A stretch of DNA of 64,000 nt from a virus (IMGVR_UViG_2879998633_000003:32001-96000); one strand, 5' to 3'; positions 7,529 to 29,411 are shown, counted from the first letter of the stretch. Notes: generated from the letters alone by a model not told the origin. Numbers and translations are program-made.

Positions 7529-7942
7529 TATACTTGTTAGGTGAAATGTTCAAGCGTTTAATGCCACTTTTCGCTAACCCATGCTCATGTTTAGATTGAT
7601 CTTTTCTCCACAAAGGACGAAATCCGCTATCACAGGGATACAGTCATTTTTGTAGTGATCAACACCGTTGATAAGAAACGTTGCTACTTCTGGCGTACAC
7701 CCGAATTTATTAAGATGGTCAGTAGACACGTGGCAATGTAAGTATCCCTGCAAAACGAACCATCAATTTTTAAAGGGCCTCTGGCGCTCTAGATTCCGCT
7801 CTTAGCACACAGGGGATGTCCAGGGCTCGGGGGTACTCCCCTGGACGCATGGCCCAGATTGACCATTATGATTTTTTATGGTTTTGTGAAGATAAAAATA
7901 ACGACAGAGCCAAAAAGACTAAAATTGAAGAGGAGCACTACC

Positions 7943-8176
7943 ATGAGCAACCCAGAAATAAAAAATAAGGGCCATGAACCTCCGGATGGTCTTCCTCGTT
8001 ATCGTCTCCTGACAGGTAAGGATGACGCTAAATTTTGTCATCGAGTTTCAGAAGCACTGGCGCTTGGTTATCAACTGTATGGTTCCCCCGCCGCGACGTT
8101 TAATGGGCAGGATGTGATTGTTGCCCAGGCTATCATATGGCCTGAGGTACAGCAGAATCAGGCTTCGTGGCAATGA
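7943..8176 (+). CDS. DUF1737-family protein
   Basis: RYRLLTGKDDAKFCHRVSEALALGYQLYGSP...AQAI; GAGGAG RBS. Confidence 0.75.
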   Translation: MSNPEIKNKGHEPPDGLPRYRLLTGKDDAKFCHRVSEALALGYQLYGSPAATFNGQDVIVAQAIIWPEVQQNQASWQ

Positions 8177-8581
8177 GTGGGCTCACAGCGTCCGGAATCC
8201 GCCCGGTGCCGTAAATCACCGCAAGGTCTGTCATAAGGTAATTTCATCACGCATCGCGACACCTTTTTCTTTACGCAGGCCTTCTCTTTCACTGTTTGTC
8301 AGAACTGTGGACCGCAGTAATCTCCACTCCGTGATTTAATCAATGAGAGTGATGACGGGTGCAAATTAAACTACCTTTCTCAACAGCAAAGGCGGAATAA
8401 CCCTACCCTCGCAGGATTTCTGCGTCTGGTAATATACCCATGACCGTCTCTAAGACCGCTTAGAGCGAAGAGCGGACATTGCCTTTATGGCATCTTTCGG
8501 CTATATAATATTTTATTAATATAAATAAAGCTAAAGCTCTCTAACTTTAGCTTTCCTTTTTACTCGGCATAATTAAATATT

Positions 8582-10432
8582 TTAACCAAGTAGATTTCGT
8601 GCTTTATCTATCAATGCCGATGTAAATCTAGACCTTTTCAGTTGGTCATCTGTCACATCACCATTACTGTCATTAACTACTGCGTCTATAATCTGGTGAC
8701 ATTTAGAGAAATGTGCAATATAAACATCACTTTTAAAGCTTTTGATTATTTTATCGCAGTAGTTATTTATTTTTTTTGAGTTTGGTTCTATTTTTTCGAC
8801 TTTACCGTGAACCACCCAAGGGTACAGCATTGCGATATGCCACCGGTATTTGTTATATCTTTGCGCATTTTCTCTTTTACCGTTAATCATTGTATTATAC
8901 TTATAGCGTATATAAACAGAAGCGAAGTAAGCGCACTCGTTGTCTGAAGGGTTAAATATAACATCTTCTTTTTTTTCAGATACTTGTTGGTCTGCTGCTT
9001 CTTGTTGGTCTGCCGCTTGTTGGTCTGCCACTTCTTGTTGGTCTGCCACTTGTTGGTCAGGGTTTTTTTGTCCAGATGCCTTTTGATTCAAAACTTTCTT
9101 CACATATCTCGCGGCATTATGAGGATCGGCCTTAAATACGGATATAAAACATCTAGCTAATTCTTTGATATCATAAATCCTTGTTGATTGGATATCGTGA
9201 CCACGATATTCATTTTCTCTGCGCTCAAAATATAGACTCTCTAACGTATCGTCCTTACGCTTTAGGTCAAAAAACTTTTGTACCATCCTCGCTTTTTCTT
9301 TAAGCGCTAAAAAAGCTTCTCCCTCAATAGCGGACTGACTATTAGTAGCTTCAATGATTCTACTAGCAACATCTGCATCTTGTGATTCAATAAATTTTAC
9401 TATTAATCTTACATCATCATTGATTTGATTATAGTGATGATGCAACGTATTAGTCGTTTGGCAACCATTTATTATTTGGTAATTAGTAAGGTTTATCACT
9501 TTTGTATTCGGCTGAATAGACAATTCTGGAGAGATAATTGTCACTCCATTATTTAAAACTGGGAATTGCTTAGATTTTATTTCATCGTCTGTTATTGTCT
9601 CTGAGATTTTTTTATTTACTTTATTCTCACCACCAAGAAAAGCCCTTATATTCTCTTCAAAAACAGACTCTTTAATCTTTCCGTCTTCATCCATTGCTAT
9701 TTTTTCAATGAAGTGCTTGGCTTTAACAGTCGCAATATATGATTGAGGAATACCCGGCATGGATTCAATACCGATGTAGTCAATTAACTGCAGTTCCGCT
9801 TCATTTTTTTCTGTGAGCGATATCCATAAGTCCATCAACTCCTTTCTACCTAATGGTTTAACTTCCACCTTGCTGAAATAGTCAGTCTCAATGCAAAAAC
9901 GTTTGATTATATCTAACGTTGCTTCGATCTCTCTCTCTGCATTATATGTCCCACTAGAACAAAAGTTTATCGTTAGCGAAGGTTTTTTATTATGTATTTT
10001 TTTGACATTTTTAAAAATTAACTTAAGAATTTCAATTGCTTGGGTGTTATAAATGCCATTTGGAAGTTTAGGTTCTAAACTTAGAAAGTCTTCTATACCT
10101 ACCTTAAAATTTGATATATCACTCTTTAAGAAACTTTCCCCAGATTTTGCTTGTGTAAGAATTATTTCAACGGGTAATGATGTTTTGTAAGTATTAAATG
10201 CTGCCTCAGCATCGTCAACATTATATATCAATTCCCCATCAACTATAAATATCACACCATCCAATGAGGCATCATCTTCTTGTGTGGTGATGTCGATTGG
10301 ATTGAATCTACCCAAATATTTTTTTGATGCTATGACATAGTTACAAAAATATTCAAATAGCTTCGACTCTTCAGCTTCAATTTCAAATTGAGCAGAGAGA
10401 TCTTGGACATACTGTTGAAGAATTGCGTGCAT
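8582..10432 (-). CDS. AIPR (abortive infection phage resistance) family protein
   Basis: FEENIRAFLG...FPVLNNGVTII...YQIINGCQTT...ATNSQ; AT-rich cargo. Confidence 0.85.
   Translation of the reverse strand: MHAILQQYVQDLSAQFEIEAEESKLFEYFCNYVIASKKYLGRFNPIDITTQEDDASLDGVIFIVDGELIYNVDDAEAAFNTYKTSLPVEIILTQAKSGESFLKSDISNFKVGIEDFLSLEPKLPNGIYNTQAIEILKLIFKNVKKIHNKKPSLTINFCSSGTYNAEREIEATLDIIKRFCIETDYFSKVEVKPLGRKELMDLWISLTEKNEAELQLIDYIGIESMPGIPQSYIATVKAKHFIEKIAMDEDGKIKESVFEENIRAFLGGENKVNKKISETITDDEIKSKQFPVLNNGVTIISPELSIQPNTKVINLTNYQIINGCQTTNTLHHHYNQINDDVRLIVKFIESQDADVASRIIEATNSQSAIEGEAFLALKEKARMVQKFFDLKRKDDTLESLYFERRENEYRGHDIQSTRIYDIKELARCFISVFKADPHNAARYVKKVLNQKASGQKNPDQQVADQQEVADQQAADQQEAADQQVSEKKEDVIFNPSDNECAYFASVYIRYKYNTMINGKRENAQRYNKYRWHIAMLYPWVVHGKVEKIEPNSKKINNYCDKIIKSFKSDVYIAHFSKCHQIIDAVVNDSNGDVTDDQLKRSRFTSALIDKARNLLG
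8984..9059. repeat. In-frame 15/18-bp tandem repeat in the AIPR gene (DQQVA/DQQEVA/DQQAA/DQQEAA)
   Basis: Five TTGTTGGTC cores separated by TGCYRC(TTC). Confidence 0.9.
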
Positions 10433-11043
10433 AATTATAATTCCTAGCTAAGATTAATGATTTTTATGAATCCTGCATTAAAACTAATCAAAGACAATAA
10501 AATTATTACACAATCAATTTGCTCATAATTTCACGGAATTGTCAATGTAAAAATACTGAACCGAATAAGTACATCGACTTGATAGGATATAGTTGTTACC
10601 GCATTACCTAGCTAAAACCTCGGAACTATCGCATTGTACTATGATTCTTATCTAAACATCATAGTCCACCCAGTTTAAACTCTCTTTTCCGTAGAAACGT
10701 CAGGAGGTTTGGAGCTTGTAGCGAACTAAGACGAGCTATTAGTGCTAAACATTTTAGCCATCGAACGTACTCCTGCTGCATTTACCAAACAATAAAAGGT
10801 TACACAATGTCTGATCAAGGACCTTTCCAGGTTAAGCTATCCGCTTATGTCACATAGCAGACAGCTATCTGCTGCTAAAGGTCCACTGTGAGCGAGAAAC
10901 GGAAGTGAGAATTTGTCATGATTACCCGGATGCAGAACTAAAATCGGCCGCTGATAATCAATGAAGAGCAGGTCAGGGTGACCAGCTCCCTTCTTATTTA
11001 TATATTACGGACAGGCGAGCATACGTTTTTACTTAATACTCGT

Positions 11044-12807
11044 TCACTTTAAGGCTTCGTCTCTGCCGTGATACCAGGTTTCAAAAGCATCAGGGGTCAT
11101 CGGTTTGGCAAAAAAATAGCCCTGAACTTCATCGCAGCCCAGCCTTCTTAAAATATCAACGGTCCTGGCGTCCTCGACTCCTTCGGCCAGAACGATATAG
11201 TCGAGCTGCTTGAGGAGTGTGATAACGTTGCGAACAATGATGCGGCTGGCATTGTCGCCAGCAACCTTACTCACAATAGAGCGGTCAAGCTTGATGATGT
11301 CCATCGGGATTTGTCGCAGGTAATTAATGTTGCTGTATCCGGAACCAAAATCATCCAGAGATATTTTAAATCCGCGTTGTTTGAGCATGTCCAGGCCGAT
11401 AAGTGCAGCGGGGCTTTCCAGCATCTTCTCGGTTTCCAGACACTCCACCCCCAGCAGGGCGGGATCCAGACGCGCGTCCAGCATTTTCTGTTCCAGCTCA
11501 TCGCAGAAATCTGGTCTTGAAAAATCACTGGCAGCCAGATTAATCGACACAGGTAAAGAAACTCCACGGCTTTGCCAGGCACTCAGTTGCACAATCGTGT
11601 GATCGATAACCCATGCTGTGAGTTCACGCATCAGGCTGGTCTTTTCGACCAGAGGAATAAACACACCCGGCAACACTTCGCCGTTTTTAGGATGTTGCCA
11701 TCTAAGCAAAGCTTCGGCTCCCGTCACACGCCCTGTCACCAGTGAGATTTTCGGCTGATAAACCAGATATAAGCCCTGGTTTTCTTGTAGCGCTTGTCTA
11801 ACTTCAGTAAGAAGGCTGAAATCAGTCTTCTTACGGCTATCCAGTGCGTCATCATAAACTGTAAACCGGCGCCCCTGACTTATCCCTTCATGCAATGCGC
11901 TGACTGCACGGCGCAGTATTTCATTCGATGTCAGAGATTTATCGCAAAGCCCGGAGTCACCCATGTGAATATCCAGATCAAGGGGAACTTCAGGGGTAAA
12001 CCTGGCCTGGATCCCCTGAAGGCTTTGAGAGATATCTTCTAATGTCCGAGTTTTTTCCTTATGGGTAAAAAAGGCAAATCGTCCAACTGCCACGGCGTAG
12101 AGCGGCCCTTCTAAAGGCAGGCGGATCTGCAGCTCTGCGACCATATTACGAAGTAGATTTTCTACGGCAGTCATACCGAGTGAGCGAGCCATTTCGTAGG
12201 CTAATGGCATATCAATACAATCAATAATGACGAGCCTGAATGCGCCTTCAGTTGAAACCTCTATATCCTTCAGCAGTCGCTGCCGGTTTGGTAATAGCGT
12301 GACTATATCGAGGTAGCCGACGGAGTGCCACGAGGCCAGAAAATCCGATATAAGTCCTGCAATCTTTTCAAAAAGATCGAGCTGCTCGTCTGAAAGTTCC
12401 CTAGGCTGAGTATCGAGGATACACAAGGTACCTATGGGTACTCCATCCTGGGTTTTAAGTGGGCAGCCTGCATAAAAGCGAATGAATGGAGCCTCTTTCA
12501 CCGCGTGATAGTCACGAAAGGTAGGGTGCTGATGAGTGTCATGACAAATGAATGTCTTACTCTGTTCCTGGGTCTGTACGCAAAATGCCTCGCTCAGGCT
12601 GATTTCCGTGACGGCAACATTTTGGGCTGATTTGATGTATTGCTTTTCTTCATCGAGAACAGAAACAAAGCCCATCGGCATGTTCAGCAATTGGCATATT
12701 AGATGAGTATATTTTTTTAACGCATCATCCCGGCCCTTGTCAGGATTTTTCAACAAGTCGATTGCCGCAAGTCTTTTACTTTCATCTCTGCTGAGATCGG
12801 TCAACAT
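11044..12807 (-). CDS. GAF-degenerate GGDEF-EAL c-di-GMP phosphodiesterase
   Basis: GAF (RFYAGCPL...GTLCILD); GGDEF position reads AVGRF; EALLRW, DDFGSGYS and EGVE intact. Confidence 0.9.
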   Translation of the reverse strand: MLTDLSRDESKRLAAIDLLKNPDKGRDDALKKYTHLICQLLNMPMGFVSVLDEEKQYIKSAQNVAVTEISLSEAFCVQTQEQSKTFICHDTHQHPTFRDYHAVKEAPFIRFYAGCPLKTQDGVPIGTLCILDTQPRELSDEQLDLFEKIAGLISDFLASWHSVGYLDIVTLLPNRQRLLKDIEVSTEGAFRLVIIDCIDMPLAYEMARSLGMTAVENLLRNMVAELQIRLPLEGPLYAVAVGRFAFFTHKEKTRTLEDISQSLQGIQARFTPEVPLDLDIHMGDSGLCDKSLTSNEILRRAVSALHEGISQGRRFTVYDDALDSRKKTDFSLLTEVRQALQENQGLYLVYQPKISLVTGRVTGAEALLRWQHPKNGEVLPGVFIPLVEKTSLMRELTAWVIDHTIVQLSAWQSRGVSLPVSINLAASDFSRPDFCDELEQKMLDARLDPALLGVECLETEKMLESPAALIGLDMLKQRGFKISLDDFGSGYSNINYLRQIPMDIIKLDRSIVSKVAGDNASRIIVRNVITLLKQLDYIVLAEGVEDARTVDILRRLGCDEVQGYFFAKPMTPDAFETWYHGRDEALK

Positions 12808-13012
12808 GGCAAGACATCCTCCGGCGCAATAGGCTTCTGGTTATTCCACACTCAAAGGTAGCATGCATCATTCTTCCAATGGCATATGGTAATACATACG
12901 CTGTGACCTGCATAAACTCTCACATTAAAATGTTTCCAGTTGATTGTCTCCCGGAAATGTCGCCCCCGGGCTGCCCGGTAATCCATTTGCTGGTTGTGTT
13001 TGTGTCAGTAAT

Positions 13013-13036
13013 GTCCGCTCCTGGCACTCAGCGGAC
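13013..13036 (+). repeat. Best-conserved copy of the GTCCGCT-N10-AGCGGAC cargo-flanking hairpin family
   Basis: GTCCGCT CCTGGCACTC AGCGGAC; related copies start at 7794, 8454, 10839, 10881, 23066, 24269, 25093, 25624 and 28087. Confidence 0.75.
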
Positions 13037-13120
13037 ATCTCAGCTTTGCCTCACCCCGGGATATTTAAACTTAGCTTTGACATCCCGTACCAGTTGCTGT
13101 TGATTCCATTTTAGGCATAA

Positions 13121-13561
13121 TCAGCACCTCGTCGCTTTGCGCAGGCAGCGGTTACGCATTTTGGCAAGCAACCAGAGTTCGTTTGCTGTTGTAGTCATCC
13201 CAAGCATCGATGTGTAAACAGTCGCAGCCCGGCGCCACAGCTTTTTGTCTTCCAGCGTCTTCGCCAGGGCCAGTGCGTCCTGGACTTTCTTCACATCCTC
13301 TTCAGATAATGGTGTTGCAGTCTGCGGCAGGGCAACATCGGGAACCTCAACGCCTGCAACAACCCGGTAGACATACTGGCAACCGTTATGGGTACGATGG
13401 AGTTTTCCCGCGGCATGGAGTTGCCGCAGCAAGTTACCTGCTGTACTGGCTTGCAAGTCCAGCGCATCGCAGACATCCTGCAGGACGCATTCTGGCGTCC
13501 GGCTAACGATGGCAAGCACCATCTGTGCTTTGGTTACTTTGGTTTTTGATTGTTTGGTCAT
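13121..13561 (-). CDS. wHTH + PerC-like phage protein
   Basis: N-terminal HTH; AKTLEDKKLWRRAA PerC-like motif. Confidence 0.65.
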   Translation of the reverse strand: MTKQSKTKVTKAQMVLAIVSRTPECVLQDVCDALDLQASTAGNLLRQLHAAGKLHRTHNGCQYVYRVVAGVEVPDVALPQTATPLSEEDVKKVQDALALAKTLEDKKLWRRAATVYTSMLGMTTTANELWLLAKMRNRCLRKATRC

Positions 13562-13574
13562 GGTCAAAACTCGT

Positions 13575-14294
13575 TTACTTGGTTAAACCTGCCGCCTTGC
13601 GGCGTTTGTACTCTTCCATCAGAACCTGCGCTGGCGTCGGCCCAGCTGGATGCCTCGGTGCTGCCAACTGCCGACGAATCGGAGGAATCGAAAACCCGTT
13701 AGCCAGGTGTTTAGTCCATTTCGTGAGTAAGTTTTCTGCCAGTTTTTTCAGCTCTCCCTCCGTCAGGTTCCTCTCAACTCCGGTTCTGCGCATCTCAATG
13801 CAAATGTGATACAGAACATCCTGTTTCCATGGATATTTGTCGCTGCCCGAGTATCGATAAGATTCGTTTCTCCAGCGTTTGTACTCCGCCATCACTGCAT
13901 CGGATGTCAGATTGAATGGATTAGCACCGCTGGCTGACACCAGCGCAACGAACTCAGCAAGATCCGGCGGCCATGTGTTTCCCGCCGCACAGCGCTCCAT
14001 ACACTGCCTGCAGACCAGCATAATCTGGGCATCACTCATCGATCCAATCTGGGCAATCCACATATCCGAGGGCGCCGCCCCGTTCTTCTGGGTCCACCGG
14101 TTCGAGAATATCTCCCCCATTACCGTCCATAGCCGCCAAGCCGTATCCGCCGCCAGCAAGTCCGTTTTGCTTTTCCCAGCGCTCTCTGGCTGCCTGAATT
14201 TCCTGAACTGCCCGGGATGCGGTGTTAGCTGGTTGAATTCCTGCATGGCCATTACCTCCGGTTGCTGGTTGTGGTTTAGATTTGGCTCTGGCAC
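13575..14294 (-). CDS. Replication protein P-like (helicase loader); exact start uncertain
   Basis: W...MGEIFSNRW...WPPDLAEF motif; follows the initiator gene. Confidence 0.7.
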   Translation of the reverse strand: MPEPNLNHNQQPEVMAMQEFNQLTPHPGQFRKFRQPESAGKSKTDLLAADTAWRLWTVMGEIFSNRWTQKNGAAPSDMWIAQIGSMSDAQIMLVCRQCMERCAAGNTWPPDLAEFVALVSASGANPFNLTSDAVMAEYKRWRNESYRYSGSDKYPWKQDVLYHICIEMRRTGVERNLTEGELKKLAENLLTKWTKHLANGFSIPPIRRQLAAPRHPAGPTPAQVLMEEYKRRKAAGLTK

Positions 14295-15015
14295 TTATCA
14301 CGCTGCGGGCAAATTTCTGCTCCCACTGAATCTGAGTGAACACTTTCCCCTCGGATTTCCAGTACGCGATGAACTCTGCCAGCTCTGTAGGCAGGTATGC
14401 CGGTTCGGGAAGCGCTATACCCCAGGTAGCAGCCAGTCGCGGCCAGTCCTGTGACGGCAGCCAAAGGTCGTGCATGGTGAATTTTCCGATCGGAATATCC
14501 ACTCCAGGTAGATACTGAGGTTGCTGGGGAAAATTTCTCTCCTGCGCATAGAGAGTGGGGTTTGATCCTTTTCCCTTCCCTTCCCTTCCTTTTCCGTCAG
14601 TGAGTCCTCCATGAGGATTCACTGAGTCCTCACTGAGCCCTCCTTGATTAGGAGCTCTCTTTTCTTCCTTTCCTGCCTTAGACTCAGTGAATTCTGGCGG
14701 AAGAGGTATTTTTGAGGCCGAAGGCCTGTTTATTTTTTGATGCTTAAGGAAACCTTTAATCTGCAAATAGCAGACATCATTCACTGAATACTCAGTGAGT
14801 AATCCATGAGTAATCAGTTCCTGTATTAGTGGTTCGCAATCGAGCGCGTCCGCAGGGAAGATTTGCATCTTCAACCGTTTTGGCGAACGCTCAAGGCATC
14901 CCATATCGTTGGCGAAGTTGAACAACCCGATAAACAGGAGACGCGCTGGAATTGAACATTCCACCACCTTCTCATCTGTCCAGAATTCAGGTTTAACTGT
15001 TCTGATGCGGGCCAT
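14032..15015 (-). CDS. Replication initiator (O-like, DnaT-like C-terminal domain)
   Basis: MARIRTVKPEFWTDEK; ELAEFIAYWKSEG...QWEQKFA. Confidence 0.85.
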   Translation of the reverse strand: MARIRTVKPEFWTDEKVVECSIPARLLFIGLFNFANDMGCLERSPKRLKMQIFPADALDCEPLIQELITHGLLTEYSVNDVCYLQIKGFLKHQKINRPSASKIPLPPEFTESKAGKEEKRAPNQGGLSEDSVNPHGGLTDGKGREGKGKGSNPTLYAQERNFPQQPQYLPGVDIPIGKFTMHDLWLPSQDWPRLAATWGIALPEPAYLPTELAEFIAYWKSEGKVFTQIQWEQKFARSVISARAKSKPQPATGGNGHAGIQPANTASRAVQEIQAARERWEKQNGLAGGGYGLAAMDGNGGDILEPVDPEERGGALGYVDCPDWIDE

Positions 15016-15066
15016 CTGAAACCTCTTATTAACCAGCTGGTGCTGGTGGTCATTGTCAAAACTCGA

Positions 15067-15627: not shown

Positions 15628-15839
15628 TCCTTAGGTATTCCATCCGTCGGATTCGGATATAGATCAGGACGTAATTCATGAGGCGTAACGCCCGTTGCAT
15701 TAAAAACCTGTAAAACTCGCGATGAAGGCACAATACCTTTTGTTTTCCACTGACTTACTGCCATGCCGCTTACTCCAAGCGTTGATGCTAATTTATTGGC
15801 TGAGCCAGCTACTCGAATTGCGTTATCAAGGGCTGTCAT
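15624..15839 (-). CDS. Cro-like (YdaS) repressor
   Basis: HTH LASTLGVSGMAVSQW; terminal ELRPDLY. Confidence 0.9.
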   Translation of the reverse strand: MTALDNAIRVAGSANKLASTLGVSGMAVSQWKTKGIVPSSRVLQVFNATGVTPHELRPDLYPNPTDGIPKE

Positions 15840-16330: not shown

Positions 16331-16351
16331 CATCTCTGATCTCACCCCATG

Positions 16352-20034: not shown

Positions 20035-20086
20035 TTTTTTATTTTCAGATACTGGCCCAGCAATGGGCCATAATGAGGTAAAACAT

Positions 20087-20332
20087 ATGCTCCAGATGTT
20101 AACCCTTGAAGAGTGGGCAAACGAGAAATACAGAAGCAATCCTCCAAGTGTTTCCACTCTCAGGAATTATGCAAAACAGAATATGTTTTCTCCCCCAGCC
20201 AAAAAAGAAGGTCGATTCTGGCGCGTCAGGGAGGATGCTGAGTTGGTCGGTACATTGACCACTCCTGTAGTAAAGAAAAGCGACCCTGTTCTTTTGCAGA
20301 GGATTTTGAACGATGGCTGCCAGACCACGTAA
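20087..20332 (+). CDS. xis: Excisionase
   Basis: LTLEEWA...PPSVSTLR...PAKKEGRFWRV; overlaps int. Confidence 0.88.
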   Translation: MLQMLTLEEWANEKYRSNPPSVSTLRNYAKQNMFSPPAKKEGRFWRVREDAELVGTLTTPVVKKSDPVLLQRILNDGCQTT

Positions 20333-21440
20333 AAATAATATATCTATTCCAAATTTATACCCGCTCTTCAGTAGAAAGGTTAATAAAGTATACTGGCGTT
20401 ATAAGCACCCGATAACTGGTAAGTTTCATAGTCTAGGAACAGACGAAGCAGAGGCCACGGCAATAGCTATTGAAGCAAATAAAAGACTGGCGGAACAACA
20501 AACCCGCCAGATAATGGCAATCACTGACAGAATTTCCACCAGCTCAGGAAAATCAATATCAACTAACACTTGGCTTGAACGTTACTGGAAGATTCAGCAG
20601 GAAAGATTAAAGTCCGGAGATATTAAAGAAAATACTGTCAAACAAAAAGCAAAACCAGTATCTCTGCTTAAGGAACGGGTAGGAATGAAATTAATATCCG
20701 CTGTCAATGTTCGAGATGTTGCGCAAATTCTTGATGAATATTTAGCGGAGGGACAACCCAGAATGGCTCAAGTCATTCGCTCTGTCCTAATAGATGTTTT
20801 TAAAGAAGCTCAGCATGCGGGAGAAGTACCTCCTGGTTATAACCCTGCACTAGCAACTAAACAACCTCGTAGAAAGATCACTCGCCAGCGCCTCACTCTT
20901 GAGGAATGGCAAAAGATTTTTGATATAGCCGATGAAAATCACAAATACATGGGGAACGCCATGCTTTTAGCCATAGTAACAGGGCAGCGACTAGGTGATA
21001 TATCCCGTATGAAATTCTCGGACATCTGGGACGATCATCTACACGTTGAGCAAGAGAAAACCGGAAGCAAAATCGCTATACCATTAGCTCTGCGTTGCAA
21101 CGCAATCAACTGGAGCCTCCGAGATGTAATCAGTCGTTGCCGGGATTATGCAGTAAGCCCTTATTTGGTTCATTTCTTTAGAACCACCTCACAGGCTGAG
21201 CGAGGAGCACAGGTGAAACCCAGAACACTGACCATGAATTTCAGCAAGGCAAGAGACAGTGCAGATATTGACTGGGGACAAGGTACACCGGCAACTTTCC
21301 ATGAACAAAGATCGCTTTCCGAGCGGTTATATAAAGCCCAAGGTATAAACACGAAAGATTTACTTGGACATAAAACTCAACAACAAACGGATAGGTACCA
21401 TGATGATCGTGGGAAGGGGTGGACAACGGTGGCCTTATGA
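20313..21440 (+). CDS. int: Tyrosine integrase (phage 21/lambda family)
   Basis: TGQRLGD, FHEQRSL, LLGH, RY catalytic motifs. Confidence 0.96.
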   Translation: MAARPRKNNISIPNLYPLFSRKVNKVYWRYKHPITGKFHSLGTDEAEATAIAIEANKRLAEQQTRQIMAITDRISTSSGKSISTNTWLERYWKIQQERLKSGDIKENTVKQKAKPVSLLKERVGMKLISAVNVRDVAQILDEYLAEGQPRMAQVIRSVLIDVFKEAQHAGEVPPGYNPALATKQPRRKITRQRLTLEEWQKIFDIADENHKYMGNAMLLAIVTGQRLGDISRMKFSDIWDDHLHVEQEKTGSKIAIPLALRCNAINWSLRDVISRCRDYAVSPYLVHFFRTTSQAERGAQVKPRTLTMNFSKARDSADIDWGQGTPATFHEQRSLSERLYKAQGINTKDLLGHKTQQQTDRYHDDRGKGWTTVAL

Positions 21441-21456
21441 GGTTTTTCGGGAGGGG

Positions 21457-21489
21457 TTTTGATAACTTATTTTGATAAAATTTTGATAA
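21457..21489 (+). repeat. Three TTTTGATAA direct repeats, probable Int arm-type sites
   Basis: Copies at 21457, 21470 and 21481, between int and the icd fragment. Confidence 0.65.
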
Positions 21490-21557
21490 CCGTTCGAAAA
21501 CTAATAATAAAAACGGGAACCACCAGGTTCCCGTTCTGACATAATCTGGGGGCCAGA

Positions 21558-21721
21558 TTACATGTTCGCGATAATCGCGTCGCCAAACTCTGAACATTTC
21601 AGCAGTTTAGCGCCTTCCATCAGACGTTCAAAGTCATAGGTCACGGTCTTGGCGGCGATAGCGCCTTCCATGCCTTTGACGATCAGGTCTGCGGCTTCGA
21701 ACCACTGCATGTGGCGCAGCA
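21558..21721 (-). pseudogene. icd: Displaced 3' fragment of isocitrate dehydrogenase; att junction between the two prophages
   Basis: Translates [53 protein letters not shown]; homology ends at TGCTGCGCCA. Confidence 0.93.
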
Positions 21722-21901
21722 ATACATATTTGAAAATTGGCTAACATGCTGAATTTAAATGCAAATAGAAGCATCAAAGAATAAGTTGCATACAAAAAAT
21801 GCCATGTGGTAACTTATTGAAACTACTATAGTTGCTTTTCGTTTTGGGGAAGGAATATCCTGTTCTATCCCTCAATGAAAATACTTATTTAAGAGTTTTC
21901 T

Positions 21902-22486
21902 ATGGATTGGTTAACGTTTTTCAGTAAATTGATTGAACACTGCACGTGGCCGGGTATTCTCCTTTTCATTGCGATCAGATATCGAAAAACTATCGTTGCA
22001 CTAGCTAGCTCTTTGAGTTCTATTAAAGTTGGAGATTTTGTTGACGCCAACTTTAGTCGCGAGGCAGCAAAGATAGCTACCGTCAGTGAAGTTGAACTAC
22101 CTCCGTCGGGAGTTGATTTTGAACAGCAGGAGGTTGAAAATAAGTTGCTAGAACTCCCCCCAAGGTTAGCGATTTTAGACGCTTGGAAAATTGTTGAAAA
22201 TTCAATTGATGAGTTCATAGTTAACAAAAATGTTGGCAGTACCGCTATGTCAAGTGGATACCCCTCCAAGTTACCACCGATCAGAAAAATTTCAGAGCTA
22301 CGCCGAGCTGAATACATAACCGCTCATCAAGCTGAGATGTTAGATAGTTTAAGAAAGTTAAGGAATGAAGTTGTACATGGCCCATATGGTTTAGAACCAT
22401 CGCAAGTTGATGCAATTAACTATGTAAAATCCGCGCTTGCATTCTCTAACTTATTTAAAATGAACATTAATCTCGACAATAAGTAG
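21902..22486 (+). CDS. Membrane-anchored HEPN-like protein
   Basis: N-terminal hydrophobic helix; C-terminal LRKLRNEVVHG (RxxxxH). Confidence 0.65.
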   Translation: MDWLTFFSKLIEHCTWPGILLFIAIRYRKTIVALASSLSSIKVGDFVDANFSREAAKIATVSEVELPPSGVDFEQQEVENKLLELPPRLAILDAWKIVENSIDEFIVNKNVGSTAMSSGYPSKLPPIRKISELRRAEYITAHQAEMLDSLRKLRNEVVHGPYGLEPSQVDAINYVKSALAFSNLFKMNINLDNK

Positions 22487-22696
22487 AAACGCTGCCATGC
22501 GGGGCAAATCCTCTCGTGCCGTCCAAAAATCCCTGAGAAACCAGCCCTTTAAGACTGGTTTTTATTCTTTTTTTTTGTACGGGGAGAAATGGGGGAGAAT
22601 CCCCCATCAATCGCAACCTTTCCGAGCTCTTTTCCGCTCAAAGAAATGTTCACTTCTCTGTCTTCTATACTTCCCGTATGACTACTGGAGGTAACC

Positions 22697-23011
22697 ATGT
22701 GCGGACGCTTTGCTGAATCACAGTCACGCGAAGAATACCTGGCTTATCTTGCCGAAAAAACTGAGCGGGATATCGCCTATGATCCAGAACTAATCGGCCG
22801 GTACAACGTGGCGCCAGGGACTAAAGTTTTGCTCCTGAGCGAACGCGATGAACAGATGCACCTCGATCCGGTCCACTGGGGTTACGCGCCAGGGTGGTGG
22901 GATAAACCACCGCTGATTAATGCACGAGTTGAGGCCGCTGCGGCCGATCAGGGGGTTGTCGATATTCATGACCGCCGGCCGCTTGTCCTGGCGCCGCCCG
23001 GGAATAGATGA
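22697..23011 (+). pseudogene. SRAP (YedK-like) pseudogene with internal deletion
   Basis: MCGRF start; matches the 24406 copy but jumps from INARVE to AADQG. Confidence 0.85.
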
Positions 23012-23238
23012 TGCAGGATGTCACGGGGGCTGGCAGTTGATAATGAGCACCTGTAAATCCATAACGTCCGCAATGTGGCCGGAGCATACATCATATACAT
23101 CTTTCTGGTTTTACCGAGTTGCAGTGTAGTATCAATCTGCGTGAATAAGTTACCGTCAAAACTACAAAGTTCTGTTAATATACGAAAGAAGTAATAATAA
23201 ATGGTGAAGCCCCAACTTACAGAGAGGATCCTCGCACC

Positions 23239-24216
23239 ATGAAACTTTACATAACTGGAAACGGATTTGATTTACACCATGGCCTTGATACCAGCTATTG
23301 TTCTTTTGCCTATTTTTTGCGATCTCACCAGAGGGATTCGTACAACAACTTAATTGAGTTTGTCGGTTTCACAGAACTCCCTGAAAATATTGACGAACTG
23401 AATGAGGATGAACATCGTCTGTGGTGTGAATTTGAAAGTAATCTGGCAGGGTTAGATTCTCAGGCTGTACTGGATGCATTTACCGATTATCTCCCAAATC
23501 TGGGTGACCCAGATTTTCGTGATAGAGACTGGCATGCATTTGAAATTGAAATGCAGCGAATTCTTGAAAATTTAACTGATGGTATTTTCACCCAGTTTAT
23601 GTCGTTTATTTCTCAAGTTAAATATCCAGAGTTTACCGCCGATAAAATACTGCAACTATGCAACAATGCCCTATTTATAAACTTTAATTACACCAGAACT
23701 ATTGAATACTATTACGGAATAAAAAGAAACCAGATTCTTTACATCCACGGCAATGCATCCTTACCTGGGGATAGGCTTATACTGGGGCATGGGATTGATC
23801 CTGAAAATTTCAAAGAGCCTCCTCAAGAGCCGCCCACGGACGCAACGGATGAGGAGCTAGAACAGTGGTATCAACACATGTCTGATAATTACGATTTTGC
23901 ATATGAAATAGGAAAACAGACTCTGAATCGGTACTTTACCCACTCATTCAAAAATACAGAGGAAGTGATAGATGCAAACCAATCATTTTTCTCTCAACTC
24001 AACGCGGTAAACGAGGTGATCATAATTGGACACTCTTTATCAGCGGTCGACATGCCTTACTTCGCTGCCATTAAGCAACACGTCCAGCCTAATTCGACCT
24101 GGACAGCGACATGGTATCTTGAAAAAGAACGTGATCAACACCTACATGCATTGCAGAGCATAGGCATTGAATATCCCCTAATTGTGCCAGTATGTAGCCT
24201 GCTGGTAAGGTCGTGA
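23239..24216 (+). CDS. AbiH-family abortive infection protein
   Basis: LYITGNGFDLHHGLDTSY; INFNYT; YIHG; IIGHSLSAVDMPYF. Confidence 0.85.
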   Translation: MKLYITGNGFDLHHGLDTSYCSFAYFLRSHQRDSYNNLIEFVGFTELPENIDELNEDEHRLWCEFESNLAGLDSQAVLDAFTDYLPNLGDPDFRDRDWHAFEIEMQRILENLTDGIFTQFMSFISQVKYPEFTADKILQLCNNALFINFNYTRTIEYYYGIKRNQILYIHGNASLPGDRLILGHGIDPENFKEPPQEPPTDATDEELEQWYQHMSDNYDFAYEIGKQTLNRYFTHSFKNTEEVIDANQSFFSQLNAVNEVIIIGHSLSAVDMPYFAAIKQHVQPNSTWTATWYLEKERDQHLHALQSIGIEYPLIVPVCSLLVRS

Positions 24217-24405
24217 CTACAACGAAAGTAGTGCTCGGCTAAATAGGCATGTTAGTAAAAGGGGTAATGTTCGCTATTTTATCATATCGGACATTCGCCA
24301 TCAGTAGGCCAAGCGCGATTGATGACGAATGTCGCTATTCCTAATACAACCCCATCGTCCAGTGTCTCTCCTTCTATACTTTCATTCTGAAGACTGGAGG
24401 TAACC

Positions 24406-25082
24406 ATGTGTGGACGCTTTGCTCAATCACAAACCCGTGAAGAGTACCTGGCTTATTTGGCTGAAGAGGCCGAGCGGGATATCGCTTATGACCCCGAACC
24501 AATCGGCCGGTACAACGTGGCTCCGGGGACTAAAGTTTTGCTCCTGAGCGAACGCGACGAACAGTTGCACCTCGATCCGGTCCACTGGGGTTATGCGCCT
24601 GGGTGGTGGGATAAACCCCCATTGATTAATGCCCGGGTTGAGACTGCTGCCAGTAGCAGGATGTTTAAACCTCTGTGGCAACACGGTCGGGCGATCTGCT
24701 TTGCGGATGGCTGGTTTGAATGGAAAAAAGAAGGCGACAAGAAGCAGCCATACTTTATCCATCGTGCCGATGGCCAGCCGATATTCATGGCGGCAATCGG
24801 GAGTACACCATTTGAACGTGGAGACGAAGCCGAATGCTTTCTGATTGCCACCGCTGCGGCCGATCAGGGGTTGGTCGATATTCATGACCGCCGGCCGCTG
24901 GTTCTTCTGACGCCGGAAGCAGCTCGCGAATAGATGAGCCAGGCTCCAGGATGTCGCAGGCAGTTGAGATTGCCGGAGATGGTGCAGTGTCCACCGACCA
25001 TTTCACATGGCACCCCGTTTCCCGCGCGGTGGGTAATGTGAAAAATCAGGGGCCGAAATTGATTGAGGCTATCAAAGCATAG
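24406..25082 (+). pseudogene. SRAP (YedK-like) with premature TAG at 24931 and a downstream frameshift
   Basis: MCGRF...DGWFEW...IHDRRP; C-terminal WHPVSRAVGNVKNQGPKLIEA follows out of frame. Confidence 0.85.
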
Positions 25083-25293
25083 CTTATAAAACGTCCGAAA
25101 TATGCTGTGAGTTCAACATCTCTTGCACTACTCCATGGAAAACAGATCAAACTAAATAGCCATGCAGATATGCTGGAGTCATGAGGGACGTTTCTCAGGA
25201 TTTGGTCCGAAGCAGTTGCCAGGAACGCCCCACGCTGCAAAAGCGCGCTAAGGTCCTTTCAAGGGAGGCAGGAAAAAGATGTTATGGTAAATA

Positions 25294-25482
25294 TCAAACT
25301 TCAACAGCAATATTTAGGTCACTATCTGTAGTCACTCGATCAATGATCCTGTGAACAATTCTATAGTGTTTGCCATTGTAGCTTTTCATATCACCTGCGG
25401 CGTAATTACGCTGTTCGGTTGTTACTACCGAGGGAAGCTTATCGCCGTTCTTATCAAAGAATGCCCATTCATAAATATACAT
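25294..25482 (-). CDS. Small hypothetical protein (62 aa)
   Basis: AGGTGG RBS; AT-rich cargo between hairpin repeats. Confidence 0.5.
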   Translation of the reverse strand: MYIYEWAFFDKNGDKLPSVVTTEQRNYAAGDMKSYNGKHYRIVHRIIDRVTTDSDLNIAVEV

Positions 25483-26001
25483 AAAACCCCACCTAAGTCA
25501 TTGTTATTTATATACATCACACCATATTTTTGTTACATCTATTTTGATGCAAATTTATGAACGGTTCGCTGCTGGGTTGTTAAGTTTAATTTGGCAGAGT
25601 GTGCCTGCAGCTACTATTTTGACATCCGCTCTACGCTCATAGCGGACTTCGACCATTTACTATGGAGAACGTGGTCTTTAGTGAATGCTAACCTGTTGCA
25701 GTTAGGTTCATTGCGTCTGCCTTACGCCTTCACCTTTAACAACGGAGCCTGTTTTCAAGACATCATAACATGATGTGCACCAATTTCCGCATCTTTCGTG
25801 TGGTTTGTTGTATCTGTATAACCTGCGAAAACATAGATTCGAACAAGTTAAAGCCCCATCAGCCCTTCGCAGGGTTGCTTGTTTCAAGCATCCGAGGAAC
25901 TAATACGCTTTACCCTTCCACGCCCCCTCCCGCAAGGTGGATGTTTTCCGTTTCCTGATACAAACTCGTTATGCTTGAACTGCCAAACACTTTAAGCACT
26001 G

Positions 26002-26029
26002 TTGACATGTCAATACTAACGCGTATACT
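26002..26029 (+). promoter_or_regulatory. Sigma70 promoter with a palindrome over -35
   Basis: TTGACA-16 bp-TATACT; TTGACATGTCAA is a perfect 12-bp palindrome. Confidence 0.75.
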
Positions 26030-26035
26030 TTAGGC

Positions 26036-26250
26036 ACGCTCTTAATTTCAGAGCCATTCTGAGAAAAGCGTTGGGACTATTTACATCCAATCTTCTCAGG
26101 AGCTTAAGCAGCGCCAATGTGTCGTGGGGTGCCGGGTTCTGCCCATTGACCGACGTGGCTTATAGTTAGGAACTCGATGCTAATATTTTGTCGTATCTGG
26201 GGATATTTGTCACACTCCGTGACAGTATGTCCAGATTCATCGCATCGTTT
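26036..26250 (+). ncRNA. Putative structured ncRNA / leader with four consecutive stem-loops
   Basis: Stems 26038-26054, 26059-26099, 26113-26159 and 26175-26247, identified by eye. Confidence 0.55.
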
Positions 26251-26266
26251 ATATTAGAGGAAACCC

Positions 26267-27172
26267 ATGTCGGATCAATCGATTGTTGTATCAGAAATCC
26301 TACCTTCGCTTCTTACTGAACACTCTCCCGAGCTTGGTGCACGTCTAAAACAGCGTATTCAGTCTGAATTTGCTGCTCGCAGATTACCTGAGTTTGATCC
26401 TCAGAAGGAAGGTTGTCGGAAGTTTGCCGTCTATCTCGAAAGATTTCATGGCGATATAGCCCGGGTTGTTCGCGTACCTGACGAAAGCGATGTTCGTATC
26501 TACAAACAGATGCATTCACATTCTCTTAATACCCAACATACTCCACATCCAGTAAATCAGAATGTCATTGTCCGCAATAATGTATGGCAGGCATTCCTTA
26601 ATCCGGATTCTTCAAGAAAACGTTTTTTTAACAAAAAGACAAAAGAGATTATCCATTTTATTCCTTCTCTGGATACTGCCGAGGAAGCTGAGGTTTCTGG
26701 CAACCCGCAAGGATTCATTGAAATCATCCCTATTTCAGGAACAGAGCAGCTTAGCTGGATGCGAGCATTTTTAGCTGGTGCTCCTCTCGGTGATACTGAG
26801 AAAGAAGTTATTTCGTCACAAATTCAGGATAAGTATTCAAGTGCACTGAATGCTACTTTCACAAAATCACTTGGTATTCATGGTTCGCTGTGGCGCAATC
26901 ACCGCCTTCCCCGTGTTATGCAATACATGCGCTCATGGGCCCAAAGAAATGAGGTACCATTCAATGAGTTATGCATTTCTGGTGTAAGTCATTCACTACA
27001 GGAGAAAGACGTAGTGTCTTCCCTGCCTGTTAGTGAGCAATTTACGCCAACCGAAGCTCTACCGCCAAGACAACTAGCTCATAAGCTACTTGACCTCATG
27101 GCTGAAAATGATATTGCACAAATGGTTCTCCCTACAATGATGAATACTCTTCTATTTAAATCTCGTCAGTGA
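26267..27172 (+). CDS. LOTUS/OST-HTH-like N-domain + UPF0158-like domain protein
   Basis: LGARLKQR...FDPQKEGCRKFAVYLE (OST-HTH-like); FFNKKTKEII...IIPIS..EQLSWMRAF...W..HR...W...NEV (UPF0158-like); AGAGGA RBS. Confidence 0.6.
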   Translation: MSDQSIVVSEILPSLLTEHSPELGARLKQRIQSEFAARRLPEFDPQKEGCRKFAVYLERFHGDIARVVRVPDESDVRIYKQMHSHSLNTQHTPHPVNQNVIVRNNVWQAFLNPDSSRKRFFNKKTKEIIHFIPSLDTAEEAEVSGNPQGFIEIIPISGTEQLSWMRAFLAGAPLGDTEKEVISSQIQDKYSSALNATFTKSLGIHGSLWRNHRLPRVMQYMRSWAQRNEVPFNELCISGVSHSLQEKDVVSSLPVSEQFTPTEALPPRQLAHKLLDLMAENDIAQMVLPTMMNTLLFKSRQ

Positions 27173-27189
27173 CTAGATGAGATTTAAAT

Positions 27190-28068
27190 ATGAATACGAT
27201 ATTTGTTATCGGAATGTTTAAATCTCAGGCAAAACGTTTTTCTGCTGAATGTAGCCGGAGGGGGACTCGCTGTCGTCAGGTTTTAGCTGACGTTGGAAAA
27301 CAAGGGGATTTTGTGCTGGTTCCTACCCCCCATGATGCTGTGCGTTCTTTCCAGGACTGGCTGGATAGTGAAGATGATGAAGAGTACGACAATCTCCACA
27401 TTATCTTATTACCTTATTGTAAAATTACTCCCGAGATGGAGATTGAGCTTGAGATAGCAGTTGAGTTGGGTGCAAAACTCATCAAGCCAGAGGCCGGGGT
27501 TGACGGATGGCCTGCATCGCTATCTCGTAAGAACAAAGCAGACACAACCTTTTTAAACACGTTTTTCGGTAAAGTAACCGGCTTGCTGCCTTTAGTATCA
27601 GAGCCAGAAGTAAGTATTTCTGCCTATTACAAACAGCTATCTTTTGAAAATCCACGTTTAGTTTTCTCTCCCCACGTTTATGCCAATTGTGATGGAATAG
27701 CATCACACCGGAAAAGTTTTATGAAGTTTGCTGCTGACTGCTTAGTAGAGCTGTTGTCGCAGCCCCCAGGATGTAGAGTCGACGCCTACTTCCGCGGAAA
27801 GGGGATTGATCATGCGCAAACTGGTGGAATATCAACTCATCTAGAAGTTGTCAGCGAAGACTCAAATGTTACACGTGTAAAATATAGCGCTGAAACACAC
27901 CTTAAAAAAGGTGATAACACAACCAGCACTGCAGCTGTTCGTATCTATTATCATTTTATCCATCATGATGATGTTAGCTATGTAATTGTTATGTATGCTG
28001 GCCCTCATCCTGAGGATGAGGTTCATTGGCAACTACAACTTCCATCCAGATCAACAGAAATGGCGTAG
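27190..28068 (+). CDS. Hypothetical protein with a RelE-like C-terminal ribonuclease fold
   Basis: HLKKG...AVRIYYHF...VIVMYAGPHP terminal motif. Confidence 0.5.
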   Translation: MNTIFVIGMFKSQAKRFSAECSRRGTRCRQVLADVGKQGDFVLVPTPHDAVRSFQDWLDSEDDEEYDNLHIILLPYCKITPEMEIELEIAVELGAKLIKPEAGVDGWPASLSRKNKADTTFLNTFFGKVTGLLPLVSEPEVSISAYYKQLSFENPRLVFSPHVYANCDGIASHRKSFMKFAADCLVELLSQPPGCRVDAYFRGKGIDHAQTGGISTHLEVVSEDSNVTRVKYSAETHLKKGDNTTSTAAVRIYYHFIHHDDVSYVIVMYAGPHPEDEVHWQLQLPSRSTEMA

Positions 28069-28144
28069 GTTCCCAATTAGTGATCAGTCGGCTCTTCACT
28101 CTAATCGGAATATAGAAGCATCGCCACTACTGTTAATGGGCGAA

Positions 28145-29410: not shown

Positions 29411-29411
29411 C

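What the first reader, a model, noticed from the sequence alone, without database searches (positions are those of the whole stretch)
7794..28110. GTCCGCT-N10-AGCGGAC hairpins bracket cargo genes like gene-cassette ends
Seen in sequence: about ten 24-bp 7-10-7 imperfect palindromes, noticed only around accessory genes: 7794 TTCCGCT-CTTAGCACAC-AGGGGAT; 8454 GACCGCT-TAGAGCGAAG-AGCGGAC; 10839 ATCCGCT-TATGTCACAT-AGCAGAC; 10881 GTCCACT-GTGAGCGAGA-AACGGAA; 13013 GTCCGCT-CCTGGCACTC-AGCGGAC; 23066; 24269; 25093 (weak); 25624 ATCCGCT-CTACGCTCAT-AGCGGAC; 28087 GTCGGCT-CTTCACTCTA-ATCGGAA. There are two loop types (GGCAC and CGCTC). AIPR, GAF-EAL and AbiH each have a GGCAC type upstream and a CGCTC type downstream, both facing outward; the LOTUS operon has the downstream type only. 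The adjacent AIPR and EAL units abut with an 18-bp spacer (10863-10880). Inference: ends of non-autonomous mobile cassettes stacked in arrays by an enzyme acting in trans (HUH- or tyrosine-recombinase-type), delivering defence and lifestyle genes to prophages. They do not match attC, REP or pdif consensus as I know them.
Basis: partly seen in the sequence, partly recalled or inferred. Interest (0 to 1): 0.75.

Follow-up and report, generated by a model that had tools for sequence, protein, structure and literature searches.

The report
Two-site gene cassettes in prophage hotspots
The short palindromes are real DNA cut-and-paste sites of two kinds at which phages, plasmids and chromosomes of gut-type bacteria swap accessory and anti-phage genes, most likely with the help of a tiny recombinase encoded elsewhere; the sites were first seen in phage P2, but the two-site layout and the enzyme appear not to have been worked out.

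Summary
The 24-bp elements are real and are recombination sites, not mere hairpins: 9-6-9 sites with one of two fixed cores, A (GTGCCA) or B (TCGCTC). In 78 related Klebsiella prophage loci, homology to the window breaks at the 13013 site in 55 and at 10881 in 6. Arrays read A-cargo-B-linker-A. Linkers are mostly 16-18 bp, and crossovers map to the core. Natural pairs show both AxA and BxB gains or losses. The GAF-EAL cassette sits on plasmids with the same ends. A 200-aa tyrosine recombinase with an intact catalytic set occupies the B-to-A slot elsewhere (12 of 16 close homologues); it is absent from this record. The sites are the inner ends of the inverted repeats annotated around the P2 Z/fun gene by Nilsson et al. 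2004, so the motif is known. I did not find the two-core layout or the enzyme in ten paper searches, but could not read that paper. HUH or hairpin readings are unsupported. Enzyme activity is inferred, not shown. This scan reported the same system before on other DNA.

The parts
7258..7509 (-). dinI-like gene, fixed flank of hotspot 1
   Evidence: Pfam DinI; homology of relatives resumes at about 7696
7794..7817 (-). Terminal A site (core GTGCTA, 1 mismatch)
   Evidence: 21.1 bits; breakpoint at 7805 in L008, L009, L017, L020, L060; loose ends at 7794 and 7813
7818..8453 (-). B-to-A module of 636 bp carrying a DUF1737 gene (ORF 7859-8176 on +, probable start 7943)
   Evidence: Pfam; same module between other neighbours in L008, L017, L069 and on a plasmid, L555
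8454..8477 (-). B site (core TCGCTC)
   Evidence: 33.0 bits; breakpoints 8468-8476; loose end 8465 in three runs plus a joint in the fourth
8478..10838 (-). A-to-B cargo: AIPR/AbiU-like gene (ORF 8582-10432)
   Evidence: Pfam AIPR, PADLOC AbiU 2.9e-102; missing together with the linker in L008, L009, L017, L020, L555; bounded by A and B in L549
10839..10862 (-). A site (core GTGACA, 1 mismatch)
   Evidence: 24.7 bits; homology of L549 begins at 10854
10863..10880 (-). 18-bp linker, the minimal B-to-A module
   Evidence: 39 of 49 B-to-A modules in the unbiased set are 16 or 18 bp
10881..10904 (-). B site (core TCGCTC)
   Evidence: 30.6 bits; breakpoint 10886-10890 in 6 of 78 loci and in plasmids
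10905..13012 (-). A-to-B cargo: GAF-EAL phosphodiesterase gene (ORF 11044-12807)
   Evidence: Pfam GAF and EAL; 98% identical copy on an IncF plasmid with ends at the same sites
13013..13036 (-). First A site of hotspot 1 (perfect consensus)
   Evidence: 38.3 bits; homology breaks here in 55 of 78 related loci, 33 first-cargo families among 53 scored
13121..13567 (-). PerC-like phage gene, fixed flank of hotspot 1
   Evidence: Pfam PerC; query
22697..23011 (+). SRAP gene remnant with an internal deletion, upstream of a decayed A site
   Evidence: Pfam SRAP profile 1-86 of 214; sequence
23066..23089 (+). Decayed A site (core GTGGCC)
   Evidence: 8.8 bits; homologous position holds an A-like site in L545
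23090..24268 (+). A-to-B cargo: AbiH gene (ORF 23239-24216)
   Evidence: Pfam and PADLOC AbiH; homology to L545 spans 23081-24292 only
24269..24292 (+). Decayed B site (core TTTATC)
   Evidence: arms 2 mismatches; intact B at this position in L545 and L546
24406..25080 (+). Second SRAP gene, interrupted by a stop at 24933; fixed flank of hotspot 2
   Evidence: Pfam SRAP; homology of relatives resumes at 25100-25116 in 20 of 47 loci
25093..25116 (+). Heavily decayed A site after SRAP
   Evidence: below 8 bits; intact A at this position in 23 of 47 relatives
25624..25647 (+). B site (core ACGCTC, 1 mismatch), closing a 507-bp module with no ORF of 80 aa or more
   Evidence: 28.9 bits; ORF list
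26267..28068 (+). Two-gene cargo of unknown function (301 and 292 aa); no upstream A site found
   Evidence: no Pfam, NCBIfam or PADLOC hit; no relative in viral contigs
28087..28110 (+). Terminal B site of hotspot 2, beside the umuC stop
   Evidence: 14.1 bits; B site within 90 bp of the umuC stop in 38 of 67 relatives
28145..29470 (-). umuC-like gene, fixed flank of hotspot 2
   Evidence: Pfam IMS; query

Best explanation
Each element is a tyrosine-recombinase site: two 9-bp half-sites (7 conserved bases plus 2 free ones) around a 6-bp crossover core. There are two non-matching cores, A and B. DNA between sites forms modules of two polarities: A-to-B cargo (defence, signalling, metabolic genes) and B-to-A modules (mostly a 16-18-bp linker, sometimes a gene, including the recombinase itself). 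Shown by comparison: the breakpoints, the alternation, crossover in the core, gains and losses by both AxA and BxB, and transfer between phage, plasmid and chromosome. Inferred: a 200-aa catalytic-domain-only tyrosine recombinase, supplied in trans from a passing plasmid, island or prophage, recombines only like cores on double-stranded DNA. One crossover excises or inserts a cargo-plus-linker circle, and two crossovers (A and B) swap one cargo for another, like engineered cassette exchange with non-matching lox sites. This window holds two orphan arrays without the enzyme; hotspot 2 is partly decayed.
For: Breakpoints: 55 of 78 loci at 13013 and 6 at 10881; 38 of 67 with B after umuC and 23 of 47 with A after SRAP. 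Order: AB 86, BA 49, AA 11, BB 10, inverted 3 of 159 adjacent pairs. Crossover: in all four comparisons the free bases on the shared side are better kept than those on the other side (A shared left 0.63/0.85 against 0.36/0.57, 30 groups; A shared right 0.82/0.82 against 0.27/0.36, 11 groups; B shared left 0.52/0.67 against 0.35/0.45, 14 groups; B shared right 0.83/0.88 against 0.32/0.35, 33 groups; core 0.96-1.00). BxB: L008 and plasmid L555 join the EAL half-site to the DUF1737 half-site, without linker and AIPR. AxA: L008 has an extra cargo-B-linker between the DUF1737 module and the terminal half-site. Fixed polarity: 45 whole-module matches among 197 cargo modules, all on the same strand. 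Enzyme: in 7 of 80 linker loci; among 16 homologues at 84% identity or more found by protein search, 15 have a B half upstream, 13 an A half downstream, 12 both, against 1 of 70 at 60-83% and 0 of 23 below 60%; R53, K81, H150, R153, H176 and Y185 invariant in 16 aligned proteins; fold nearest XerA (E 3.7e-8, 18% identity). More distant homologues have the same arms with other cores, and sister sites occur across Proteobacteria.
Against: No recombination was observed and no circle junction was seen in reads; the one raw-read run laid lacks most of the array. The enzyme is not in this record nor in K. pneumoniae ATCC 13883, which has 4 A sites. The predicted single empty A site was not found in viral contigs (0 matches). 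The recombinase's own half-sites are degenerate (3-5 arm mismatches), and the 16 close homologues are not independent of each other; three lie in contigs already found by the motif. Position 8 follows its neighbour only 52-63% of the time although flanks are 94-97% identical, which a clean core crossover does not explain. 12 of 78 hotspot-1 loci vary without any site, and 5 of 7 AIPR homologues have no site within 1.5 kb, so other routes also move these genes. The genome co-occurrence (3 genomes with the enzyme at 96% or more, all among the 6 with three or more A sites, of 251) is confounded by taxonomy.
Confidence: 0.75

Rival explanations
1. Same enzyme, but cargo leaves by joining A to B (non-matching cores) as a copy-out circle and inserts with a 6-bp footprint, as in strand-biased circularizing elements (SEs) and Tn554.
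For: 6-bp cores between imperfect inverted arms, as described for SEs (PMC10214605, passages). The same cargo is found with different linkers (14 groups). B differs from the reverse complement of A at only two bases. SRAP genes flank hotspot 2, and a gene named srap is an SE core gene.
Against: It predicts A-linker-A empty sites: 0 of 52 short site pairs are A-A and 49 are B-to-A. It does not explain gain of linker plus cargo as a unit (window against L008). SE core genes were not seen beside the recombinase.
Confidence: 0.1
2. The sites are used by a host or phage function (XerCD, another recombinase, or single-strand annealing on 24 bp of microhomology), and the small recombinase is only a passenger cassette.
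For: Sites are present in genomes without the enzyme. Exchange is frequent in prophages, yet the enzyme is rare in isolated phage records (2 of 50,697, both below 60% identity) and present in 815 of 5,426 E. coli genomes.
Against: Two strictly kept cores and strict alternation need a site-specific enzyme. The arms do not resemble dif half-sites (recalled). The recombinase sits in the linker slot in Enterobacterales and keeps the same arms with changed cores in Pseudomonas, Halomonas-group and Xanthomonadales loci.
Confidence: 0.1
3. Folded single-strand hairpins recognised by an HUH transposase or an integron-type integrase (REP/RAYT, IS200/IS605, attC-like).
For: The arms are complementary and could fold.
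Against: Watson-Crick pairs in the arms equal the number expected from independent columns, and a C-A mismatch at positions 4/21 is tolerated in 71 of 281 B sites and 29 of 294 A sites. Crossover lies in the would-be loop. No Rfam match. No HUH gene was recognised among the clusters recurring in three or more of 80 linker loci (judged from sequence starts, not a profile scan).
Confidence: 0.04
4. Operators of a transcription regulator, or terminators, that happen to flank horizontally acquired genes.
For: 7-bp inverted repeats near gene ends; some lie just after stop codons (28087).
Against: Sequence identity switches inside the element between relatives, the central six bases are the most conserved (96-100%), and sites alternate regardless of gene orientation.
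Confidence: 0.01

Closest known systems
Inverted repeats of the P2 Z/fun region (Nilsson, Karlsson and Haggard-Ljungquist 2004, Mol Biol Evol 21:1, PMID 12949155; GenBank AJ512676, AJ512679, AJ512683)
   Same: The annotated left repeat (3-115) ends exactly with an A site (92-115) and the right repeat (1942-2032) begins exactly with a B site (1942-1965) in AJ512676; likewise in AJ512683, and the left repeat in AJ512679. P2 fun(Z) itself lies between A and B. A review says these repeats enable site-specific exchange of fun (PMC8987985, passage).
   Different: The annotated repeats are 91-113 bp and include outer sequence not present in this window. Here the working unit is the inner 24 bp, with two cores, multi-cassette arrays, linkers and a candidate enzyme, at two lambdoid hotspots. 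The paper is not held, so I cannot say how much of this it already states.
pdif modules of Acinetobacter plasmids (XerC/XerD; recalled, not read)
   Same: Alternating modules of two polarities between sites with a 6-bp centre; non-autonomous; enzyme in trans.
   Different: pdif sites are 11-6-11 with distinct XerC and XerD arms and use the chromosomal Xer pair. These sites are 9-6-9 with near-symmetric arms and two fixed cores, and the candidate enzyme scores far below XerC/XerD cut-offs (48 against 335 bits, 29 against 330) and is itself a mobile module.
Integrons (IntI, attI, attC cassettes; recalled)
   Same: Arrays of accessory and anti-phage gene cassettes moved by a tyrosine recombinase; orphan arrays without the enzyme, like CALINs.
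   Different: No attC structure or variable length; two site types; cassettes hold one to several genes in either orientation; the enzyme is about 200 aa, with no room for a core-binding domain, and lies inside the array rather than at a fixed platform.
SE / GMT / GInt elements (PMC10214605, passages; bioRxiv 10.1101/2023.03.28.534373, passages)
   Same: Tyrosine recombination at repeat-containing sites with a 6-bp centre (SE); defence cargo in Gammaproteobacteria.
   Different: Those are autonomous islands with three or four core genes and element-specific targets, and SEs leave a variable footprint; here one small enzyme, fixed cores and stackable non-autonomous modules.
Engineered recombinase-mediated cassette exchange with non-matching loxP or FRT sites (recalled)
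   Same: Two sites with identical arms and different spacers allow double-crossover replacement.
   Different: This is a natural system, and exchange is inferred from genomes only.

Membership tests
P2 Z-region inverted repeat (Nilsson 2004) | Inner ends of the annotated left and right repeats match the window's A and B sites | tested here: met
   A at the end of the left repeat in 3 of 3 records, B at the start of the right repeat in 2 of 2 records that have one
P2 Z-region inverted repeat (Nilsson 2004) | Outer 70-90 bp of the long repeat present | tested here: not met
   window flanks are phage-specific; a blastn of window 6500-14300 against phages listed no P2 Z-region record among the 40 of 61 rows shown
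Tyrosine-recombinase site | Inverted arms around a 6-8-bp conserved crossover region, with exchange inside it | tested here: met
Tyrosine recombinase (candidate enzyme) | R-K-H-R-H-Y catalytic set and integrase fold | tested here: met
Tyrosine recombinase (candidate enzyme) | Acts on A and B sites | not testable with these tools
   only genomic association
Integron | attC: R-L-spacer-L-R folded site of 55-141 bp with extrahelical bases | tested here: not met
   fixed 24-bp site, no pair covariation; definition recalled; IntegronFinder not available
Integron | IntI integrase of about 320-340 aa with core-binding domain | tested here: not met
   candidate is about 200 aa, catalytic domain only; no IntI among the 54 window proteins scanned
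pdif modules | 11-6-11 site with XerC and XerD arms | tested here: not met
   consensus compared with the dif consensus from memory; no profile search run
pdif modules | Alternating module polarity | tested here: met
   135 of 159 adjacent pairs are AB or BA
pdif modules | Dependence on XerC and XerD | not testable with these tools
   needs mutants
SE / GMT / GInt | Three or four core genes (two recombinases plus accessory proteins) at one end | tested here: not met
   single small recombinase; none in the window record
SE / GMT / GInt | Variable 6-bp footprint; intact single target site | tested here: not met
   cores fixed (130 of 155 exact); 0 of 52 A-linker-A pairs
REP / RAYT and IS200/IS605 ends | Folded hairpin with covarying stem and an HUH transposase | tested here: not met
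   no HUH cluster recognised
IS or MITE ends | Terminal repeats with target duplication, listed in ISfinder | tested here: inconclusive
   junctions are shared cores, not duplications; ISfinder could not be searched

The most novel reading that the evidence does not exclude
A gene-cassette system independent of integrons and spread across Proteobacteria: a family of about 200-aa recombinases works on 9-6-9 sites with clade-specific pairs of cores and performs natural cassette exchange. It would be a main route by which defence genes are swapped at the P2 Z/fun locus, at lambdoid prophage hotspots, on plasmids and in chromosomal islets, and the enzyme would be among the smallest site-specific recombinases usable for cassette exchange.
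Probability: 0.55. Interest if true: 0.85.

Novelty: new variant of a known kind. Interest (0 to 1): 0.72.

Why it matters
[quoted passage not shown] The sites described here flank one of those hotspots (Z/fun) and two lambdoid ones. They give a named enzyme and defined substrates, so the question becomes a simple reporter experiment. The sites also mark candidate defence genes without homology (166 module families among 197 cargo modules), and they explain how near-identical genes pass between phages and plasmids (the 98% identical GAF-EAL cassette). They do not explain every hotspot: P2's tin/old region has no such site at up to 3 arm mismatches.

Tried and rejected
Rfam at gathering score: nothing at the sites. 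Empty single A site at hotspot 1: 0 matches in viral contigs; L328 has A directly abutting B, which looks like an internal deletion, not an empty site. Reads: no circle or excision joint; three of the four runs were contigs and the raw-read run has zero depth over 8589-12901, so this is no test of activity. Recombinase in the window record: none. PDB sequence search for the recombinase: 0 hits. Atlas: only automatic 'tyrosine recombinase' names. Relatives of the 26267 ORF in viral contigs: none; LOTUS remains a lead only. Order-wide co-occurrence: the GTDB order sample is mostly outside the enteric families, so it is not used as proof. The window's own integrase (20313-21440) and invertase (30965-31543) were rejected as the enzyme: they are a lambda-type integrase and a serine resolvase and neither is tied to the sites in other loci. 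Paper searches without a description of the two-core system or the enzyme: (listings read); passages read. Nilsson 2004 is not held. For the protein alignment 16 of the 20 rows first sent were kept; two were dropped for an internal stop or frameshift and two as a precaution.
Full report
Observation. All ten elements are at the stated places. Five have at most two arm mismatches against 0.24 expected from 200 shuffles. Because the consensus came from the window, I checked 160 sequences fetched by phage protein or accession (the window among them): 155 distinct arm matches at a 10-bp spacer, 0-4 at every other spacer from 6 to 14, and 130 of the 155 with exactly one of two 6-bp cores, 144 within one mismatch. 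A matrix trained without the window finds eight of the ten sites and one stray 9-bit hit in the 114,740-bp record. Sites 24269 and 25093 are decayed; relatives have intact sites at the same positions.

Setting. The window spans parts of two lambdoid prophages whose closest relatives are Klebsiella phages. The sites lie in two accessory hotspots: between a PerC-like gene and dinI (7794-13036) and between SRAP and umuC (23066-28110).

Anatomy. Read on the minus strand, hotspot 1 is A(13013) - GAF-EAL - B(10881) - 18-bp linker - A(10839) - AIPR/AbiU - B(8454) - DUF1737 module - A(7794). A is GTCCGCT-NN-GTGCCA-NN-AGCGGAC and B has the core TCGCTC. Among 159 distinct adjacent pairs in the unbiased set, 86 are A-to-B, 49 B-to-A, 11 AA, 10 BB and 3 inverted; 39 of the 49 B-to-A modules are 16 or 18 bp. 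Of 52 short site pairs in 277 loci not selected by a two-core pattern, 49 are B-to-A and none is A-A. The 45 whole-module matches among 197 cargo modules are all in the same polarity.

Breakpoints. In 78 related loci, homology to the window ends at the 13013 site in 55 (alignment ends 13000-13024, because the conserved arm carries the alignment a few bases on), at the 10881 site in 6, runs through in 1, reaches the end of the locus in 4, and breaks elsewhere with no site in 12. The 53 scored loci at 13013 carry 33 different first cargoes. At hotspot 2, 38 of 67 informative loci (of 80) have a B site next to the umuC stop, 23 of 47 have an A site after SRAP, and none shares the window's cargo. 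Public runs show loose ends at 7794, 7813, 8465, 13011, 13027 and 13037, but no circle joint.

Crossover point. With one vote per group of related flanks, the two free bases on the side of the shared neighbour are kept more often than those on the other side in all four comparisons, while the core is 96-100% identical (figures under Best explanation). The exchange therefore lies in the core. Position 8 is kept less often than its flank (0.52-0.63 against 0.94-0.97), which I cannot explain. Natural pairs show both kinds of event. L008 and the IncF plasmid locus L555 join the EAL half-site to the DUF1737 half-site, lacking linker plus AIPR (BxB). L008 has an extra cargo-B-linker before the terminal half-site (AxA). 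The GAF-EAL cassette is 98% identical on Klebsiella plasmids with ends at 13036 and 10890. Sites also bound low-GC islets in the K. pneumoniae ATCC 13883 chromosome. The arms show no pair covariation and often carry a C-A mismatch, which fits double-stranded binding sites, not folded hairpins; reassortment of half-sites would also erase covariation, so this point is supporting, not decisive.

Candidate enzyme. Seven of those 80 loci hold a roughly 200-aa tyrosine recombinase, which lies in the linker slot: B half, gene, A half. Searching by protein, 12 of 16 homologues at 84% identity or more have both halves, against 1 of 70 at 60-83% and 0 of 23 below 60% when scored for the enteric cores. 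The same layout holds in E. coli and K. pneumoniae records, one of them at the equivalent lambdoid hotspot. The catalytic set is invariant in 16 aligned proteins. The model (pLDDT 86) is a catalytic domain nearest XerA at 18% identity, and the protein is far below XerC/XerD cut-offs. A published classification describes simple tyrosine recombinases as usually having both a core-binding and a catalytic domain (PMC8138268, passages); I did not place this family in it. The gene is in 815 of 5,426 E. coli genomes and 217 plasmid records at E up to 1e-60, 16 of them Klebsiella, but not in this record or in ATCC 13883. More distant homologues in Pseudomonas, Halomonas-group and Xanthomonadales loci have the same arms with other cores (GGGTCG or TGGCCG upstream, CGGCCA downstream).

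Mechanism. Shown by comparison: the sites are crossover points, modules alternate, both AxA and BxB events occur, and cassettes move between phage, plasmid and chromosome. Inferred from established tyrosine-recombinase chemistry and from the enzyme's position: the small recombinase, supplied in trans, recombines like cores on double-stranded DNA, so that single crossovers move cargo-plus-linker circles and double crossovers exchange cargo. I put about 0.93 on the sites being recombination sites, 0.8 on this enzyme and 0.75 on the whole. Against it: no activity seen, no empty single site found, degenerate half-sites at the enzyme gene, site-free variation in 12 of 78 loci, and 5 of 7 AIPR homologues without sites.

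What is known. Phage P2 fun(Z) lies between an A and a B site. In the GenBank records of Nilsson et al. 2004, the annotated left inverted repeat ends with the A site and the right repeat begins with the B site, to the base. The motif is therefore that repeat's inner end. The paper is not held; I know it from these records, from citing passages and from recall of its abstract, and it may say more than I credit. The system works like pdif modules and integrons but fails their defining tests, and it differs from SE/GMT islands (membership table; pdif, attC and REP definitions are recalled). Ten paper searches gave no description of the two cores, the linkers or the enzyme; most subscription papers and bioRxiv supplements are outside the library. 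The 2026 P2/P4 hotspot study leaves the swap mechanism open. Earlier reports of this scan reached the same system from E. coli and other DNA; I saw them only after the analysis above, and they are not counted as support.

Verdict. Observation confirmed; interpretation partly supported. A known repeat, here resolved into a two-core cassette-exchange system with a strong candidate enzyme: new variant of a known kind, interest 0.72.

Noticed in passing
L145:8697-8731 and homologues L210-L221: The recombinase's ribosome-binding site lies in a strong inverted repeat just inside the B half-site, and a G+C hairpin after the stop codon overlaps the left arm of the A site. Probably a brake on translation and a terminator.
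   Followed up: partly
L244, L253, L257, L273, L277 (Pseudomonas-group loci): Here the upstream core is the reverse complement of the downstream core in several loci, so the recombinase module is flanked by matching inverted sites and could invert, unlike in Enterobacterales.
   Followed up: no
all A and B sites, position 8: The first free base follows its neighbour only 52-63% of the time while the flank is 94-97% identical; unexplained hypervariability next to the core.
   Followed up: partly
window 24293-25092: The second SRAP gene lies between a decayed B and a decayed A site, so it may itself be a B-to-A module or mark a tandem duplication of the phage end; both SRAP copies are broken.
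   Followed up: no
window 7697-7793: About 90 bp between the terminal A site and dinI that most relatives lack (homology resumes at 7696); L004, L005, L066 and L067 share it from 7736.
   Followed up: no
window 21555-21724: A piece that reads as the 3' end of icd on the minus strand, next to the integrase; likely the attachment site between the two prophages (identification recalled).
   Followed up: no
window 21902-22486 and 61965-63014: A DUF4145/HEPN gene and a low-GC SMEK-domain gene with a PADLOC hit are accessory, possibly defence, genes with no A or B site beside them.
   Followed up: partly
window 3616-4313: IS1 insertion upstream of the holin gene (Pfam DDE_Tnp_IS1).
   Followed up: no
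window 57797-57969: Rfam STnc100 sRNA match, 75.3 bits.
   Followed up: no
L399:5475-5513 and P2 (L079:15320-15358): An E. coli Nissle 1917 island has nearly the same bases left of its A site as the P2 left repeat, hinting that the long P2 repeat is itself a mobile platform that delivered the sites.
   Followed up: no
L556 (Lelliottia plasmid): A dense array with seven B and two A sites in 8 kb, holding a copy of the GAF-EAL cassette plus linker.
   Followed up: no
L543, L544 (K. pneumoniae ATCC 13883 chromosome): A and B sites bound low-GC islets of regulator and oxidoreductase-like genes among housekeeping-like ORFs; one short B-B pair occurs.
   Followed up: partly
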